A stretch of DNA of 64,000 nt from Bdellovibrionota bacterium (GTDB lineage: Bacteria; Bdellovibrionota_C; UBA2361; JAAYZI01). How positions within the stretch are numbered: position 1 is the first letter of the stretch; the number at the start of each line of letters is the position of its first letter. A program made the position numbers. The DNA lies in contig JBMNIF010000001.1 of the NCBI GenBank assembly GCA_050950765.1, positions 448,001 through 512,000 on the forward strand, given 5' to 3'. Below are positions 15,001 through 30,000 of this stretch, in pieces.

Positions 15001-18000
15001 TTTAGCCATCTTCTTATCCGCATGCTGATTAATAATCTTCCCCTGTATAGGTTATCGGCAAGAAGAGGAGAAAACGTTCACCCTTTATTTAATTAGTATT
15101 AAAATGTAGGAGTTTTATTAGAATCAATTAGTAAATCTTTGAACTTATTGATTTTATTTATTGTTTTAGTAAATTAAACTTTAGGGTCTGCCTGAAGAGG
15201 TCAAGCCCTTATAAATTAACGAGATATATTATTGAGAAGATATTATGAAAGAGCAGCTTTTTAAAGCTTTCTGTCTTGGAATCCTTGAAGGGCTTACAGA
15301 GTTTATCCCTGTTTCAAGTACGGGGCATATGGTGCTGTTAGGCAATGCTTTAGAGTTTACAGGAGATAAAGCTAAGGTTTTTGAAATCTTTATTCAGTTA
15401 GGTGCTATTTTAGCAGTGCTTCTTCTGTATTGGAGGTATTTTATTGTTCTGATCTGCCCTAAGTTTAAGACACCAGAGACGCTCGCTTTCGTAGGGTGGA
15501 AAGGGATCTTAAAATTAATCTTAGTGACTACACCGGCTGCTATTTTAGGGCTACTGTTTCATGGACAGATTAAGATGTTGTTAGAGCCCCTTCCCGTTGC
15601 TATCGCTTTAATAGTTGGTGGATTGCTACTGATCGGTGTTGAAAAACGGAATAAGGCGGTACGAGTTAACGCCGTGCAAGATATCACTTACTTGGATTCT
15701 CTACTGGTCGGATGTTTTCAATGCCTTGCTTTATGGCCAGGGATGTCCCGTTCCGGCAGCACTATTATAGGTTCAAGGCTACTCGGTTTTAGGAGAGATG
15801 TAGCAGCTCAATTCTCTTTTATTATTGCTGTACCGATTATGTTTGCCGCTGTTGGGTATGATCTCTGGAAAAACCGCAATATCCTTGAAGTTTCGGACCT
15901 TCCTGTTTTCGCAGTAGGTTTTGTTGTCTCTTTTATTACCGCTATTTTTGCTATTAAGTTTTTTTTGAAGATATTACAACGTTATACCTTGTGTAGCTTC
16001 GGTTGGTATCGAATCGTATTAGGAATTTTTGTAATAGGGCTCCACTTATTGTAATGACCTGTCTTTTTAGGGTTGTATATTTAAATCGTTAAAGAACGTT
16101 CCAATTAGGGATCGGAGGGCAAAGGCGCTTACGGCAACGACTAATAGCCCTAAGGCGGCTTTATAGTTACCGACTGCGGCGCTTAAGATCGCCATAATAC
16201 CGGCAGCGACCATAACCATAGCACCGAAGGAGCCTTCGATATAGGTTAAAATAGCATTTGTTGCATCAGCTAAACGTTCGTCATTATAGTTAATTGATAC
16301 AGTACCACCCATATAGCCATCAGCAACGACATTGAGAGAGAGTCCTACTATTAATAAGGTCACACCGCAGGCTAATAATATAAATTGTATCTGCAACTTT
16401 GTCGGTGCAACACAAGCAGAGGTGATTTTTTGGCAGATGTGAAGATATTTTTCTGCAATCTGTTTCTTAATAGTCATAATCAAACTCATCAAAAAGTGCT
16501 TCTTAAAGATCTTTTAAGGAGCGACTGATATTATAAGTTATAGCATAAAGGCATTATTTTCAATACCAATAGAGTGATACCAAGTGAGAGGTGCTAATAG
16601 GAATAGAAAACAACGCAATAAATTACAGATTATTTGGAATAAATTCTAAATTATCCTTGAGCTTTTGATGTCAGTCCAGGGATGAGTTTGAGCGGATCTA
16701 GAGGCTTGCCGTTACGGCGAATTTCAAAGTGGAGGTGTGGTCCTGTGGATTGACCACTATTTCCTAATGTAGCTATGATCTGACCAGCAGCAACCTCTTC
16801 TCCGATTGATATCTTTATCTTATCAAGGTGTCCGTAGTGGCTAGTCATGCCTGAATTGTGGAGGATTACAACTAAATTTCCGTAACCTGCATAGGGATCA
16901 GCGAATACAACCTTACCCCTTCCTATCGCTCTAACGGGAGCTCCTAGTGGTGCTGCTAAATCGATACCGCTATGGTTACGTGTAACTTTAAAGATAGGGT
17001 GTCTTCTTGAGCCGAACTTACTGGAAAGGCGCGGACGTACTACGGGATAAACGAATGAAGGATCTGTTGTGGCTAAGATCTGAGGAGTGGGGAAGGCGTG
17101 ACTGTATTGTGGGATAAGTAGTATGACGAACAATGTAAGTATTGTTGTGAAGTACCCCCTCATCTTATCACCACAATAGTTAACGTTGTCTGATTAAGTC
17201 CATAGCAGCTTCTTCTACGGTACTACCAGCACTTCTTACTTGAACGGTACGTGATGGAACTGAACGGGGATCCCTACCAAAAGCTACGATATCTTTTGAA
17301 ATCCACGCTCTCTCTCCTGTGGGAGCAACAACTCTAAACCAGTCTCCAGACCTCGTCTCTATCGCTAAACGTGTGCCCTTCGCAATGGACATCATCGGAG
17401 AGTGATTCATGCCTGGACCTGCTCTAAGGTTGGCTTTATCAACAACCACCGTTGCGATAGGCATCTCTTCTGTTGTTTTGCGTGATTGTACGGGAGTTAA
17501 TAAAGATTCTCTTTCTTGATTAACTTGATTAACTCGGTTTCTGTTAGAACTTCTGTTGTATACCTGTTTAAGGGGTGGATTGATGCTCTTCCCAGAGCCC
17601 TGAATAATATCGCTCAACCTTTCGACCTCAGTTTCCGCAACCATTAATTTATTGCGTAACTCTATCACCTTATTTGATAGTAACTTTACTTGACGTTCGC
17701 TTTCTGCCAGCTGTTTTTCTAGTCGAGAATTTTTATTTTGGATCTCCGCCGATGATTTTTTTTGGAGATTGACCTCATCTTTTAAAGTGGAATTTTCACC
17801 ACGTAATTTTTTTATTTTATTATTAATCTGATTTAAAATTTCGTTAGAAGGTAGTCCGTCTTTCTCAAGGGCATTTTCTTTTTTAAGCTCTGTTTCCTGC
17901 GGCAATGCTTTTTGAACCAGATCGGATTTTGTATTACTTTTTAAGGATATTGTTGCTTTAGCTAAAGCTTGAGGAGCTTCCCAATTTGTTTCACTCAATA

Positions 18001-27000: not shown

Positions 27001-30000
27001 ATGTCTGGTACGTGCATAATGTCCGGAAGCAGCTGCCAATGACCTGACATCCGCACCTTCTTCCGAAACTTCTATAGGCTGGTTTTCTTCTTGAGCATTA
27101 ACAGGAAGAGAAAAAAAAGGTACGAATAAAAATGTAACGGCAACAACAACGCTCGATTTTAAAAAAACCATTTTTATACCCTTAAACGAATTTAAAATTG
27201 TTACAACTAGCGGCTATTATTTATAATAACTGAGCGAATAAATTAACTTTTTACGGAAATAAAAAGAAATACCCCCAGTTTCACCATAATATCCGAGCCA
27301 TCTCTTATCTTGATCCACTTTTAAGGATCTATAATGCTAAATAAAACTATCTGCATAGACAGCTATCGACAGATTTAAGGTGAGAACTTTATGCTTTCTA
27401 TCGATAATTTGTTAGTTTTTGAAAAAGTAGAGGTTTTTCCTAGCCTTCCAATTAGGACACCCACTTTTAACCTCCGTGCAGATCTAACTAGTCCTGTCTT
27501 CAGTTGCAGCCCGTTCTGCTGTCCCTAGTGGGTGGTGGTAAATTCCCCCCGTCTAGATCTAGCTGACTCGTTTTGTAGCATCAGCCCGTTCGATCGTCCT
27601 TAGAGGGTGCTGCCTTTTACCTCCGTAAAAACCTAGCCAGTTCGTTTTGCAGTATAGCCTCCAATTAGGACACCCACTTTTACTGGTGGGTGGCACCAAA
27701 TTCCAAACCTTAAGATTTTTGCTAACATCCTGATATCATTGGTAGCCCTGAAGGGTGGCACCAAATTTTTAACCTTCGTCCAGATCTAACCTCCAATTAG
27801 GACACCCACCTTTTACCTCCGTCCAGATCTAGCCTTCCAATTAGGACACCCACCCTTAGCTGAAGGGTGGCACCAGATTTTTCCGTGCAGATCTAACTAG
27901 TCCTGTCTTCAGTTGCAGCCCGTTCTGCTGTCCCTAGTGGGTGGTGGTAAATTCCCCCCGTCTAGATCTAGCTGACTCGTTTTGTAGCATCAGCCCGTTC
28001 GATCGTCCTTAGAGGGTGCTGCCTTTTACCTCCGTAAAAACCTAGCCAGTTCGTTTTGCAGTATAGCCTCCAATTAGGACACCCACTTTTACTGGTGGGT
28101 GGCACCAAATTCCAAACCTTAAGATTTTTGCTAACATCCTGATATCATTGGTAGCCCTGAAGGGTGGCACCAAATTTTTAACGCCTTAAGATTTTTGCTA
28201 ACATCCTGATATCATTGGTAGCCCTGAAGGGTGGCACCAGATTTTTAACCTACGTCCAGATCTAGCCTTCCAATTAGGACACCCACCCTTAGCTGGTGGG
28301 TGGCACCAAAACTGCCAATCCAAATGCTAGCCAAACGAGCTGCAAATCTGAAGGGTGGCACCAAAACTGCCAATTCTGGGCTTTTGCTAACATCTTGATA
28401 TTGTTAGCTATTGTAGTTTTAGAGTTTGGGTGTCCTATTTGTGAAGCGTCCTTGCCTGCTGTCCGTTACTGAAGGGTGGCACCAGTGACAGCCCCAAACA
28501 AAGAAGGGTGGCACCAGATTTTTAACCGTGCAGATCTAACTAGTCCTGTCTTCAGTTGCAGCCCGTTCTGCTGTCCCTAGTGGGTGGTGGTAAATTCCCC
28601 CCGTCTAGATCTAGCTGACTCGTTTTGTAGCATCAGCCCGTTCGATCGTCCTTAGAGGGTGCTGCCTTTTACCTCCGTAAAAACCTAGCCAGTTCGTTTT
28701 GCAGTATAGCCTCCAATTAGGACACCCACTTTTACTGGTGGGTGGCACCAAATTCCAAACCTTAAGATTTTTGCTAACATCCTGATATCATTGGTAGCCC
28801 TGAAGGGTGGCACCAAATTTTTAACCTTCGTCCAGATCTAACCTCCAATTAGGACACCCACCCTTAGCTGAAGGGTGGCACCAGATTTTTAACCTCCTGC
28901 TGTCCGTTACTGGTGGGTGGCACCAAAACTGCCAATTCTGGGTTTTTGCTAACATCTTGATATTGTTAGCTATTGTAGTTTTAGAGTTTGGGTGTCCTAT
29001 TTGTGAAGCGTCCTTGCCTGCTGTCCGTTACTGAAGGGTGGCACCAGTGACAGCCCCAAACAAAGAAGGGTGGCACCAAATTTTTAACCTCCGTAGAAAC
29101 CTAACCGATCCGCTCTGCAGTTGCAGCCCGTTCTGCCGTCCCTGAAGGGTGGCACCAGATTTTGGGGAATCGCAAGGGTTTTTATAGAACGATGTTTTCT
29201 TTGTGGTGTTGTAGGTAGAGTTGCAGCCAAAGAGGCATCCTGCAAGAAAAGACCTTGCAAGACCTCCTTCTATGATATTTTTATATAAAAAACAGTTACT
29301 TAAGAAGTCGAATAGCTTCGCGGCACAGTTGTTCAAAGCGGATCGGCTTGTTAATAAAGGCATCGGCCTTTATCCAGCGCCGCTCTTCGATAGTTGAGGC
29401 ATCAAAGTGAAGAGCTGTTTTGTTATTAACATCGGAAACTATAATGATAGGGAGATCTGGTGCCTGTTTTTTAATAGTATAGCAGAGTGTAAACCCTTTA
29501 TCCTCAGTCTCTAACATCACCTCCGTTACAACTAAATCCGGTTTAGCACCATTAAAGGCTTTTTCTGCCTCCGCAGCACTAGAAGCGGTTATGACGTGAG
29601 CTCCAACTTTTTCAAAAGCTTCTTTTCCAGAGGCTACAAATTGAGTGTCTTTATCAACAAGTAAGATGTTTTTCCCTGATAATTTAGAACATGCGCAGCT
29701 CATAATATCTCCTAAAACTAAAAAACGTATCCGAAAAGCTAAATTAAAAAGTTAAAAAGCCCTTTTTTCCCCTCAATAATTTAAAATCAATCAACTTCGT
29801 TAACACACCACCATAAGTTTCAATTCCGAGAAAGTTAAAAAGCCCTTTTTCCCCTCAATAATTTAAAATCAATTAACTTCGTTAACACACCCATAAGTTT
29901 CAATACCGAGAAAGTTTAAAAGCTTTAATCAATCCTCTTAATTCAAAGTAGGGGAGGTGACTTTATCTCATCTCCCCTACAAAGGGGCTTTTATTAACGA

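What a model noticed while it worked through the whole genome (the two positions that open the first line are those of the whole stretch)
16651..27171. Order-wide chromosomal F-type T4SS core without relaxase, tied to an M23 peptidase
A thirteen-gene minus-strand cluster encodes VirB4/TraC (g00387), VirB10/TraB (g00390) and weak but collinear matches to TraE, TraK and TraV (g00392, g00391, g00389), followed by bPH, SH3 and M23 peptidase genes (g00384-g00382); no relaxase is seen in the genome, and the marker families occur in 76-79 of the 90 genomes of the order. I read it as a vertically inherited, domesticated conjugation-type machine that delivers proteins (for instance the linked cell-wall hydrolase) into neighbouring cells, a third contact weapon beside the Tad and T3SS-like systems. 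New would be an F-type (not VirB/X-type) T4SS recruited for bacterial killing.
Evidence so far: Gene order and Pfam rows TraC_F_IV, P-loop_TraG, TrbI, bPH_2, SH3_3/4, Peptidase_M23. Relaxed Pfam scan of the 9 unnamed ORFs: TraV E 2e-3, TraK_C E 1e-4, TraE E 0.03, one weak MIT hit, five with none. relatives.tsv: TraC_F_IV 76/90 (2.9% of bacteria), TrbI 79/90, T4SS-DNA_transf 66/90, TrwB_AAD_bind 70/90. Coupling-protein-like ATPases lie elsewhere (g01834, g01758, g00498, g00501, g00559). No Pfam row of a relaxase family (Relaxase, MobA, TrwC, TraI) in the genome. The cluster is absent from the contig of G024.
(Added by a program. Inside this text positions count along the whole contig: contig position 448,001 is position 1 of the stretch shown here. 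"Call 12" and the like, gene names such as g00115 and contig names such as C1 are that model's own, and its searches are not shown. The text may have been shortened before it was handed on; [...] marks where a part breaks off. The agent that wrote the report below was given it as the finding of a first reader that could run no searches.)

Follow-up and report, generated by a model that had tools for sequence, protein, structure and literature searches.

The report
Phylum-wide chromosomal F-like secretion machine
This gene cluster is the core of a very divergent relative of the F-plasmid DNA-transfer machine that has become a permanent, inherited chromosomal trait of a whole lineage of uncultured Bdellovibrio-like bacteria, and its linked cell-wall enzyme more likely helps to build the machine than serves as its cargo.

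Summary
Window 16067-27171 (minus strand) holds 14 collinear genes. They encode TraL/VirB3-like, TraE, TraK, TraB, TraV, an N0-domain lipoprotein and TraC/VirB4. Two small proteins follow, then a bPH membrane protein, a coiled-coil SH3 protein and an intact M23 peptidase.

TraC occurs in 121 of 124 genomes of the tool's phylum-level set at 56-82% identity, about as conserved as the housekeeping protein Ffh. Among 1.84 billion cluster representatives its next relatives have at most 29% identity. Three other parts lie elsewhere in the chromosome and are also lineage-wide: a VirD4-type coupling ATPase, a TraG_N/VirB6-like operon and a second pilin copy. Six relaxase families gave no match in this genome. 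TraH, TraU and TraN were not found.

I read it as a host-owned, vertically inherited F-derived type IV secretion system. It resembles the Rickettsiales rvh "archipelago" in layout but comes from F-type stock. The M23/SH3 module is most likely the machine's own wall-remodelling unit, not a delivered weapon. The substrate is unknown.

The scan had already noted this system on three other genomes. My four topical literature searches found no description of it.

The parts
26500..27171 (-). First gene: exported protein of unknown family. It carries a conserved ~85-residue periplasmic domain (consensus GHYARAR...EFD...WR...LDPQPR), which is duplicated in this genome only.
   Evidence: ORF. Homologue present in 31 of 34 loci. 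Alignment A4. Only a weak sub-threshold MIT row in Pfam. No NCBIfam or Atlas match. The N-terminal hydrophobic segment makes a relaxase unlikely.
26024..26449 (-). TraL/VirB3-like small membrane protein (lead, not proven).
   Evidence: Present in 31 of 34 loci. 0 of 32 members match Pfam. The Atlas feature search puts it with VirB3/TraL clusters (score 0.92, 208 of 256 shared features; 19 of 30 hits share that family set). It sits directly upstream of the TraE-like gene, as traL does in F (gene order recalled).
25292..25924 (-). TraE (VirB8-class) bitopic inner-membrane protein.
   Evidence: Pfam TraE 0.028 here. 18 of 31 orthologues match TraE, 5 above the cut-off. NCBIfam TraE_TIGR 0.018.
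24472..25314 (-). TraK (VirB9-class) outer-membrane core subunit.
   Evidence: Pfam TraK_C 1.3e-4. 29 of 31 orthologues match TraK_C or TraK_N. 47-59% identity across the class.
23294..24451 (-). TraB/VirB10 (TrbI domain) envelope-spanning subunit.
   Evidence: Pfam TrbI 2.8e-11, above cut-off. NCBIfam F-type TraB 4e-9. Present in 32 of 34 loci.
22806..23261 (-). TraV-like (VirB7-class) lipoprotein.
   Evidence: Pfam TraV 2.5e-3. 26 of 32 orthologues match TraV, 9 above the cut-off. Lipobox LSGC read from the sequence.
22295..22798 (-). Second lipoprotein, with a C-terminal secretin-N0/STN-type domain. It resembles DotD and the globular domain of Xanthomonas VirB7.
19511..22246 (-). TraC/VirB4 ATPase, with intact Walker A (GVSGSGKS) and Walker B (VLVFDE) motifs.
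   Evidence: Found in 121 of 124 genomes at 56-82% identity. Next relatives among 1.84e9 representatives have at most 29% identity.
19227..19514 (-). Small proline-rich lipoprotein, overlapping the end of traC by 4 bases.
   Evidence: ORF. Present in 32 of 34 loci. No convincing family.
18759..19130 (-). Small protein with one N-terminal hydrophobic segment and a low-complexity tail; poorly conserved.
   Evidence: Present in 12 of 34 loci. Hydrophobic segment 8-26.
18182..18736 (-). Membrane protein with two hydrophobic segments and a bacterial PH domain.
   Evidence: Pfam bPH_2 1.2e-8. Present in 26 of 34 loci. Hydrophobic segments.
17180..18136 (-). Exported coiled-coil protein ending in a bacterial SH3 (cell-wall-binding type) domain.
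   Evidence: Pfam SH3_3 5e-9 and SH3_4 4e-7. Present in 29 of 34 loci.
16651..17163 (-). Small M23 (LytM-type) peptidoglycan endopeptidase with a signal-peptide-like N-terminus and a complete catalytic set.
   Evidence: Pfam Peptidase_M23 5e-36. H64, D68, H112, H143 and H145 are invariant in 24 of 24 sequences, and all have hydrophobic N-termini. Adjacent in 23 of 34 loci at 41-61% identity.
16067..16492 (-). VirB2/TrbC-like pilin candidate: a leader ending in A-Q, then two conserved hydrophobic helices.
   Evidence: Alignment A1. 3 of 13 members give weak Pfam TrbC matches, 2e-3 to 8e-3. Adjacent in 12 of 34 loci. The family occurs in 119 of 124 genomes, with 2 copies here and up to 19 elsewhere. 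The fold search was not significant.

Best explanation
The cluster is the main operon of a host-owned, vertically inherited type IV secretion system that descends from F-type mating-pair-formation genes.

Shown:
- The operon encodes an inner-membrane and energy part (TraL/VirB3-like, TraE, TraC/VirB4).
- It encodes an outer-membrane core (TraK, TraB, TraV, plus an extra N0-domain lipoprotein and a third small lipoprotein).
- It encodes a pilin-like subunit.
- The rest of the machine is scattered in the chromosome and is equally lineage-wide: one VirD4-type coupling ATPase, an operon with an extended TraG_N/VirB6-like protein, and a second pilin gene.
- No relaxase is recognisable.

Inferred:
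- The coupling ATPase feeds substrates to the channel. Proteins are more likely than DNA. The channel passes them across the envelope, probably to another cell.
- The pilins and extended VirB6/TraG proteins, which are multiplied in some orders, form the variable contact surface.
- The downstream bPH, coiled-coil-SH3 and M23 genes are the machine's own wall module. The Sec-exported, catalytically complete M23 endopeptidase cuts peptidoglycan cross-links locally so that the complex can be inserted. This is the job done by VirB1-type lytic transglycosylases in other systems; no such gene is in the cluster.
For: Family assignments. At orthologue level, TraE matches in 18 of 31, TraK in 29 of 31 and TraV in 26 of 32.

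One unit with changing flanks: nine core genes are collinear in 31-32 of 34 loci, and the flanking genes match in 0 of 14.

Lineage-wide presence:
- TraC in 121 of 124 genomes (73 of 73 high-quality).
- Coupling protein in 110 of 124 at 58-78% identity.
- TraG_N-like protein in 108 of 124.
- Pilin family in 119 of 124.

Vertical descent and strong constraint: TraC identity is 82% within the family, 64-77% within the order, 59-63% in other orders and 56% in the deepest family. It correlates with Ffh identity (Spearman 0.65) and is at least as high as Ffh in 45 of the 55 genomes I transcribed. The clade is isolated: one full-length representative at 70% identity, then at most 29%.

Intact ATPases: Walker motifs are present.

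TraG_N identity: 12 of 18 proteins scanned match PF07916, 2 of them above the cut-off. One paralogue sits beside the cluster in G002 and G078.

Joint loss: the single-contig genome G040 gave no match for TraC, TraK, TraB, coupling protein or pilin.

No relaxase: six families gave 0 matches.

M23 as an assembly factor:
- The catalytic residues are invariant in 24 of 24 sequences, and all have signal-peptide-like N-termini.
- Its conservation equals that of the structural genes.
- No Pfam row of a lytic-transglycosylase (SLT) family appeared for any of the 13 cluster proteins scanned.
- LytM domains occur in VirB1-class hydrolases of Gram-positive T4SS (PMC12857230, passages).
Against: - No substrate, effector or target was identified, and no experiment exists for any member of the lineage.
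- The coupling protein is unlinked, so its tie to this machine rests on co-distribution and one joint loss.
- The VirB3 and pilin assignments are leads only: 0 of 32 and 3 of 13 Pfam matches, no PDB sequence match, and a non-significant pilin fold search.
- G040 keeps the TraG_N operon although the core is gone, so that operon may work independently of the machine.
- An M23 enzyme exported by Sec could still leave the cell by a two-step route, as the T4SS review describes for some systems (PMC12857230, figure legend seen).
- M23 is missing next to the cluster in 11 of 34 loci.
- An earlier scan note (e1-3347700) reports a single-stranded-DNA-binder-like fold beside the coupling gene in another genome. 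That would favour DNA as substrate. I found no such neighbour here.
Confidence: 0.6

Rival explanations
1. One reading: a bacteria-killing F-type T4SS whose cargo is the linked M23 cell-wall hydrolase, injected into neighbouring cells on contact.
For: - The M23 enzyme is catalytically complete and has been linked to the cluster for a long time (23 of 34 loci).
- A coupling protein exists and no relaxase does.
- Relatives are labelled Bdellovibrionota, a phylum that includes obligate predators (reference title seen).
Against: - All 24 M23 orthologues have a signal-peptide-like N-terminus. Known X-T4SS effectors are recruited from the cytoplasm through a C-terminal domain (recalled).
- No immunity-type gene lies beside M23.
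- M23 is single, short and as conserved as the structural genes (41-61% identity), unlike typical fast-evolving, multi-copy toxins.
- The N0 fold is generic: it also occurs in secretins, TonB-dependent receptors and phage baseplates.
Confidence: 0.15
2. A DNA-transfer or DNA-release system (conjugation-like, or like the gonococcal genetic island) that uses a relaxase of an unrecognised family.
For: - The ancestry is conjugative.
- The coupling protein carries TrwB_AAD_bind and TraG-D_C domains, and its best NCBIfam model is a VirD4-like conjugal transfer protein (2e-59).
- Earlier scan note e1-3347700 reports an ssDNA-binder-like fold next to the coupling gene in another genome (not checked here).
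Against: - Six relaxase families gave 0 matches at E<=1.
- The unnamed cluster ORFs are small and/or start with a hydrophobic segment.
- No integrase or mobility genes travel with the cluster, and the flanks are housekeeping genes.
- Strict vertical descent across a phylum-level set is unusual for a DNA-mobilising element.
Confidence: 0.15
3. A DNA-uptake (competence) machine or a pilus-only adhesion device, like ComB or T4CP-less pilus systems, with the unlinked coupling protein serving something else.
For: - The core cluster itself has no coupling protein.
- Pilin-like genes are universal in the lineage and multiplied in some orders.
- The T4SS review lists T4CP-less systems that take up DNA or build adhesive pili (PMC12857230, passage).
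Against: - The coupling protein is distributed like TraC (110 of 124 genomes) and is lost together with it in G040.
- It is held at 58-78% identity.
- No other VirB4-type system was seen in the genome for it to serve: one search lists a single TraC match in G000.
Confidence: 0.08
4. A decaying remnant of an integrated plasmid, ICE or megaplasmid.
For: - The F-specific accessory genes and a relaxase are missing.
- The parts are scattered over three contigs.
Against: - All genes are open in 31-32 of 34 loci.
- TraC is at least as conserved as Ffh in 45 of the 55 genomes compared.
- The ATPase motifs are intact.
- G+C content (0.40-0.45) does not stand out from the rest of the window.
Confidence: 0.02

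Closest known systems
F-type (MPF-F) conjugative T4SS of F, pED208 and related plasmids (traL-E-K-B-V-C ... traG)
   Same: - The same families in the same order: TraE, TraK, TraB, TraV, TraC.
- The best VirB4 model is TraC-F-type.
- The closest plasmid homologues are all annotated TraC.
- A TraG_N-type extended VirB6 is present.
   Different: - At most 29% identity to any outside TraC, and below NCBIfam's equivalog cut-off (181.8 against 567 bits).
- TraH, TraU and TraN were found in 0 of 21 genomes; TraW and TraF gave only chance-level hits.
- The coupling protein is not TraD-like, and there is no relaxase.
- It has an extra N0 lipoprotein and an M23/SH3/bPH module.
- It is chromosomal, scattered and vertically inherited.
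Rickettsiales vir homolog (rvh) T4SS (Gillespie et al. 2009, PMC2653234; abstract read)
   Same: - Host-owned and vertically inherited.
- Split into chromosomal islets.
[quoted passage not shown] Here there are tandem arrays of 4-5 TraG_N paralogues in other orders.
   Different: - rvh derives from the P/T-type vir lineage, this system from F-type genes.
- rvh belongs to obligate intracellular bacteria of eukaryotes.
- Here pilins are also multiplied, and VirB1 is replaced by an M23 enzyme.
Xanthomonas/Lysobacter bacteria-killing X-T4SS
   Same: - Chromosomal, with a coupling protein and no relaxase.
   Different: - X-T4SS is VirB/T-type.
- Its effectors carry a C-terminal recognition domain and have immunity partners (recalled). 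Neither was looked for genome-wide here, and neither is present at the M23 gene.
VirB1-class wall hydrolases of T4SS, including PrgK of pCF10 with a LytM domain (PMC12857230, passages)
   Same: A dedicated peptidoglycan hydrolase encoded within the transfer operon. M23/LytM chemistry has a precedent in T4SS.
   Different: - Here the enzyme is a stand-alone, Sec-exported M23 domain.
- It is partnered with separate SH3 and bPH proteins.
- The host is diderm, and there is no SLT domain.
Legionella Dot/Icm DotD
   Different: - 12-16% sequence identity only.
- The rest of the system is not I-type/T4B.
- The fold is shared with many unrelated machines.

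Membership tests
Type IV secretion system (VirB4-based) | VirB4-family ATPase with intact nucleotide-binding motifs | tested here: met
   TraC_F_IV and P-loop_TraG are above the Pfam cut-offs. Walker A and B motifs are present.
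Type IV secretion system (VirB4-based) | Outer-membrane core: VirB10, VirB9 and VirB7 classes | tested here: met
   TrbI 2.8e-11. TraK in 29 of 31 and TraV in 26 of 32 orthologues.
Type IV secretion system (VirB4-based) | VirB8-class and VirB3-class inner-membrane subunits | tested here: inconclusive
   The TraE (VirB8-class) part is met: 18 of 31 orthologues match, 5 above the cut-off. The VirB3/TraL part rests only on the Atlas feature search (0.92) and on gene position; 0 of 32 members match Pfam.
Type IV secretion system (VirB4-based) | VirB6-class polytopic channel protein | tested here: met
   It is not in the cluster, and TrbL PF04610 gave 0 matches. TraG_N-like proteins lie elsewhere: 12 of 18 match PF07916, 2 above the cut-off. 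The family occurs in 108 of 124 genomes and sits beside the cluster in G002 and G078.
Type IV secretion system (VirB4-based) | VirB2-class pilin | tested here: inconclusive
   Leader plus two hydrophobic helices. 3 of 13 members give weak TrbC matches. The PDB profile search and the fold search were not significant.
Type IV secretion system (VirB4-based) | Type IV coupling protein (VirD4 family) | tested here: met
   A 786-aa protein at G000:C3:505498-507858 with T4SS-DNA_transf 2.9e-42, TrwB_AAD_bind and TraG-D_C. Found in 110 of 124 genomes. It is unlinked to the cluster.
F-type (MPF-F) T4SS | VirB4 groups with F-type TraC | tested here: inconclusive
   The best model is TraC-F-type at 181.8 bits, 87 bits above VirB4_CagE, but far below the equivalog cut-off of 567. 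No phylogeny with reference MPF classes was built.
F-type (MPF-F) T4SS | F-specific accessory set TraF, TraH, TraN, TraU, TraW (list recalled from the F-plasmid literature) | tested here: not met
   TraH, TraU and TraN matched in 0 of 21 genomes each. TraW_N gave 1 of 21 at 4e-3. TraF gave only small unspecific thioredoxins. A thioredoxin-like protein does precede the TraG_N gene: 8 of 9 orthologues give weak Thioredoxin_8/_2 matches.
F-type (MPF-F) T4SS | TraD-type coupling protein | tested here: not met
   The best NCBIfam model is conju_CD1115 (2e-59); TraD_Ftype scores only 3e-15.
Conjugative element (plasmid/ICE) | Relaxase | tested here: not met
   PF03432, PF08751, PF03389, PF07514, PF01076 and PF02486 each gave 0 matches at E<=1 in the own genome, which is 94% complete. 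A novel relaxase family cannot be excluded.
Conjugative element (plasmid/ICE) | Mobility: patchy distribution, foreign composition, integrase at the border | tested here: not met
   TraC is in 121 of 124 genomes, with identity tracking taxonomy. G+C is ordinary. The flanks are housekeeping genes.
Bacteria-killing X-T4SS | VirB/T-type core with effectors bearing a C-terminal recognition domain and paired immunity genes (recalled) | not tested
   The core here is F-like, not VirB-type. No genome-wide effector search was run. Only the N0-lipoprotein resemblance was seen.
ComB-type DNA-uptake T4SS | Works without a coupling protein | tested here: not met
   A conserved coupling protein is distributed like the core and is lost with it in G040.

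The most novel reading that the evidence does not exclude
An F-plasmid-type mating machine was captured early in the history of this uncultured Bdellovibrio-like lineage and turned into a lineage-defining, host-owned injector that delivers proteins into other cells (prey or hosts). It would be the F-type counterpart of the Rickettsiales rvh system. Multiplied pilins and extended VirB6/TraG proteins would form a diversifying contact surface, and an M23/SH3 module would replace VirB1.
Probability: 0.35. Interest if true: 0.85.

Novelty: new variant of a known kind. Interest (0 to 1): 0.7.

Why it matters
To my knowledge (recalled), the characterised effector-translocating or otherwise domesticated T4SS derive from the VirB/T-type or the Dot/Icm I-type, and F-type systems are known as DNA movers. 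I could not confirm this from the papers I read.

This F-derived system has been kept for the whole history of a phylum-level lineage. Its ATPase is about as conserved as the signal-recognition-particle protein Ffh, and it has a coupling protein but no relaxase. That would be a third, independent route from conjugation to a cellular organelle.

It offers a concrete handle on the unknown lifestyle of these uncultured, apparently anaerobic Bdellovibrio-like bacteria. It also offers a natural control, namely one closed genome that has lost the machine. For T4SS mechanics, it is a minimal F-like core that works without TraF/H/N/U/W and uses an M23 endopeptidase in place of a lytic transglycosylase.

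Tried and rejected
- Profile searches of the pilin-like (A1) and VirB3-like (A2) families against PDB sequences gave only chance rows.
- The Atlas search with the first gene (u223) gave no usable hit.
- The pilin model (pLDDT 71) gave no Foldseek match at E<=0.001. The Agrobacterium T-pilus VirB2 appeared at rank 6 with E 3.2, which is not evidence.
- tblastn against plasmids with the thioredoxin-like protein and with a pilin-like member found no match.
- My own HMMs of the partner families found nothing beside TraC in the two loci of the deepest family. This was later explained: TraK-TraB lie on another contig there.
- RNA runs: no RNA holder listed.
- Rfam and tRNA scans of 14000-31000 found nothing.
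- Promoter-like and terminator-like sites were no more frequent than in shuffled sequence.
- Literature searches for this system and for isolate labels shown in record titles found no paper describing it. Supplements were not opened.
- I considered a complex prediction (M23 with the SH3 protein, or the N0 lipoprotein with TraK). I did not run one because no claim here rests on binding.
- I rejected the idea that any unnamed cluster ORF is a relaxase. They are 95-223 aa, and four of the five begin with, or contain near the N-terminus, a hydrophobic segment.

Full report
**Observation**

The thirteen minus-strand ORFs are present exactly as described. They are tightly packed: TraE/TraK overlap by 23 bases, TraC and the next gene overlap by 4 bases, and the other gaps are 7-99 bases. 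G+C content over the cluster (0.40-0.45) does not stand out from the rest of the window.

A fourteenth gene on the same strand, 158 bases further on (16067-16492), belongs to the unit. It is syntenic in 12 of 34 related loci.

**Are the weak TraE/K/V matches real?**

I fetched the orthologous loci from 34 other genomes and scanned each orthologue on its own.
- TraE: 18 of 31 match PF05309, 5 above Pfam's cut-off.
- TraK: 29 of 31 match TraK_C or TraK_N, 1 above the cut-off.
- TraV: 26 of 32 match, 9 above the cut-off.

No other family recurs among these hits. NCBIfam agrees independently: TraC-F-type 1.6e-53 (VirB4_CagE only 3.8e-27), F-type TraB 4e-9, and weak TraK_Ftype and TraE_TIGR rows. 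tblastn against 72,556 plasmids finds only genes annotated TraC, at 25-28% identity.

**The unnamed genes**

- The 141-aa protein upstream of TraE has no Pfam match in 32 of 32 members. The Atlas feature search places it with VirB3/TraL clusters (0.92; 19 of 30 hits share that family set). This is a lead, consistent with its position.
- The first gene (223 aa) is exported and carries a conserved ~85-residue domain of unknown family, duplicated only in this genome.
- The 95-aa product is a third small lipoprotein.
- None of these ORFs could plausibly be a relaxase.
- The 14th gene has a leader ending in A-Q followed by two strongly conserved hydrophobic helices. 3 of 13 members give weak TrbC/VirB2 Pfam matches. 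The fold search was uninformative. I call it a pilin candidate.

**Distribution**

TraC is found in 39 of 41 relatives and in 121 of 124 genomes of the tool's phylum-level set, including 73 of 73 high-quality genomes, at 56-82% identity. All 124 are labelled same order or same class. Record titles of relatives read Bdellovibrionota, Bdellovibrionales or Deltaproteobacteria MAGs.

Of the three misses, two have TraK at a contig end, so they are assembly gaps. The third, G040, is a single-contig genome that gave no match for TraC, TraK, TraB, the coupling protein or the pilin.

The nine genes from the first gene to the 95-aa lipoprotein are collinear in 31-32 of 34 loci. One exception is cut by a contig end. 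The other two belong to the deepest family, where TraK-TraB lie on another contig. Further counts:
- bPH in 26 of 34 loci.
- SH3 in 29 of 34.
- M23 in 23 of 34.

The flanking genes (BacA, hydrogenase) are conserved in 0 of 14 loci.

**Vertical inheritance and constraint**

Ffh, taken from the same window, is 56-70% identical across the set and 37-38% in the deepest family. I transcribed identities for 55 genomes: all families, but only 3 of the 35 species of the largest genus, and only full-length matches. In this subset TraC identity correlates with Ffh identity (Spearman 0.65) and is at least as high in 45 of 55.

Against 1.84 billion cluster representatives there is one full-length representative at 70% identity plus fragments. 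The list then drops to at most 29% identity. Four of those nearest outsiders, which I scanned, are themselves TraC-F-type-like.

**The rest of the machine**

- One full coupling protein (786 aa; T4SS-DNA_transf 2.9e-42, TrwB_AAD_bind, TraG-D_C) sits alone beside mutS on another contig. It is present in 110 of 124 genomes at 58-78% identity. Its best NCBIfam model is the CD1115 VirD4-like family, not TraD.
- A weak TraG_N match led to a 1060-aa protein on a third contig. The family is in 108 of 124 genomes. 12 of 18 members scanned match TraG_N, 2 above the cut-off.
- In two loci from other orders (L066, L067) it forms tandem arrays of 4-5 paralogues.
- In G002 and G078 a paralogue lies directly upstream of the core cluster.
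- The pilin family is in 119 of 124 genomes, with 2 copies here and up to 19 elsewhere.
- TrbL/VirB6 (PF04610) gave no match.
- TraH, TraU and TraN were found in 0 of 21 genomes, TraW_N in 1 of 21 weakly, and TraF gave only unspecific small thioredoxins.
- Six relaxase families gave no match at E<=1 in this genome.

**The M23 question**

The enzyme has every catalytic residue (HxxxD, HxH and a further His), invariant in 24 of 24 orthologues, and all orthologues begin with a signal-peptide-like hydrophobic stretch. Its conservation (41-61%) matches TraK (47-59%) and exceeds TraB (28-54%). It is single-copy at the locus, has no small neighbour that could be an immunity gene, and no SLT-family row appeared for the cluster proteins scanned.

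The recent T4SS nomenclature review shows LytM domains within VirB1-class hydrolases of Gram-positive systems (PMC12857230, passages). I therefore read M23, with the SH3 and bPH proteins, as the machine's wall-remodelling and anchoring module (about 0.65) rather than its cargo (about 0.15). A two-step export route cannot be excluded.

**What it does**

- Shown: an intact, strongly constrained, lineage-wide F-derived T4SS with a coupling protein and no recognisable relaxase.
- Inferred: it translocates substrates. Protein is more likely than DNA. The target is probably another cell, given the pilins and the multiplied, extended VirB6/TraG proteins.
[quoted passage not shown] That system comes from the vir lineage.
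- The Vampirovibrio proposal of predation by T4SS concerns a T-type system with plasmid relaxases (PMC4451040, passages).

**Literature**

Searches found no paper that describes this system. A review of contact-dependent predation mentions T4SS only for Lysobacter and Xanthomonas (PMC12428579, passages). Supplements were not read.

**Earlier notes of this scan**

One search shows that the same system was reported on three other genomes, with similar conclusions. One note adds an ssDNA-binder-like fold beside the coupling gene. I did not find such a neighbour here; in three relatives the gene downstream of the coupling protein is a flagellin.

**Limits**

- ORFs were called mechanically, so start codons are uncertain.
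- The VirB3 and pilin assignments are leads only.
- No MPF reference phylogeny was built.
- No expression data were found (see Tried and rejected).
- The substrate is unknown.

Noticed in passing
window 27200-29300: The ~2 kb directly upstream of the cluster is non-coding and made of repeated units. Identical 46-aa and 43-aa pseudo-ORFs recur at 27559, 27968 and 28611, and there are short tandem repeats of 43 and 67 bases. Earlier scan notes mention similar repeat arrays elsewhere in this genome.
   Followed up: partly
G000:C2:69009-71690 and 72425-74713 (L048:9009-11690, 12425-14713): Two neighbouring large proteins combine a T4CP/HerA-like P-loop region (T4SS-DNA_transf ~1e-9, DUF87) with C-terminal leucine-rich repeats. 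This is an unusual fusion and is probably unrelated to the coupling protein proper.
   Followed up: no
L050:408-1271, L051:4099-4959, L052:351-1268: In 3 of 5 relatives the gene directly downstream of the coupling-protein gene is a flagellin-like protein, by eye and by its multiple paralogues in the own genome. In a fourth relative the neighbours look flagellar.
   Followed up: partly
G040 (single-contig genome of the same order): This genome gave no match for the T4SS core, the coupling protein or the pilin, but keeps the thioredoxin-like / ~550-aa / TraG_N-like operon. Its Ffh gene appears broken into three frames, which suggests many indel errors in that assembly.
   Followed up: partly
L066 (G054:C2:312000-330000) and L067 (G051:C1:2772000-2788000): Tandem arrays of 4-5 TraG_N-like paralogues of 600-1150 aa. 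The genomes of these orders also carry many pilin-like genes, 7-19 matches each.
   Followed up: partly
window 29994-34159: A three-gene [FeFe]-hydrogenase set of the electron-bifurcating type (HydA-like, Nuo51-like and 2Fe-2S thioredoxin-like subunits) lies next to the repeat array. A second Fe-hydrogenase is at G000:C2:75605-77053. Both point to an anaerobic lifestyle.
   Followed up: no
window 9522-10295 and 7534-8178: A second exported SH3-domain protein (SH3_3 4e-5) and a C2-domain protein (5e-5) lie a few kb from the cluster. Their relation to the SH3 protein of the cluster was not examined.
   Followed up: no
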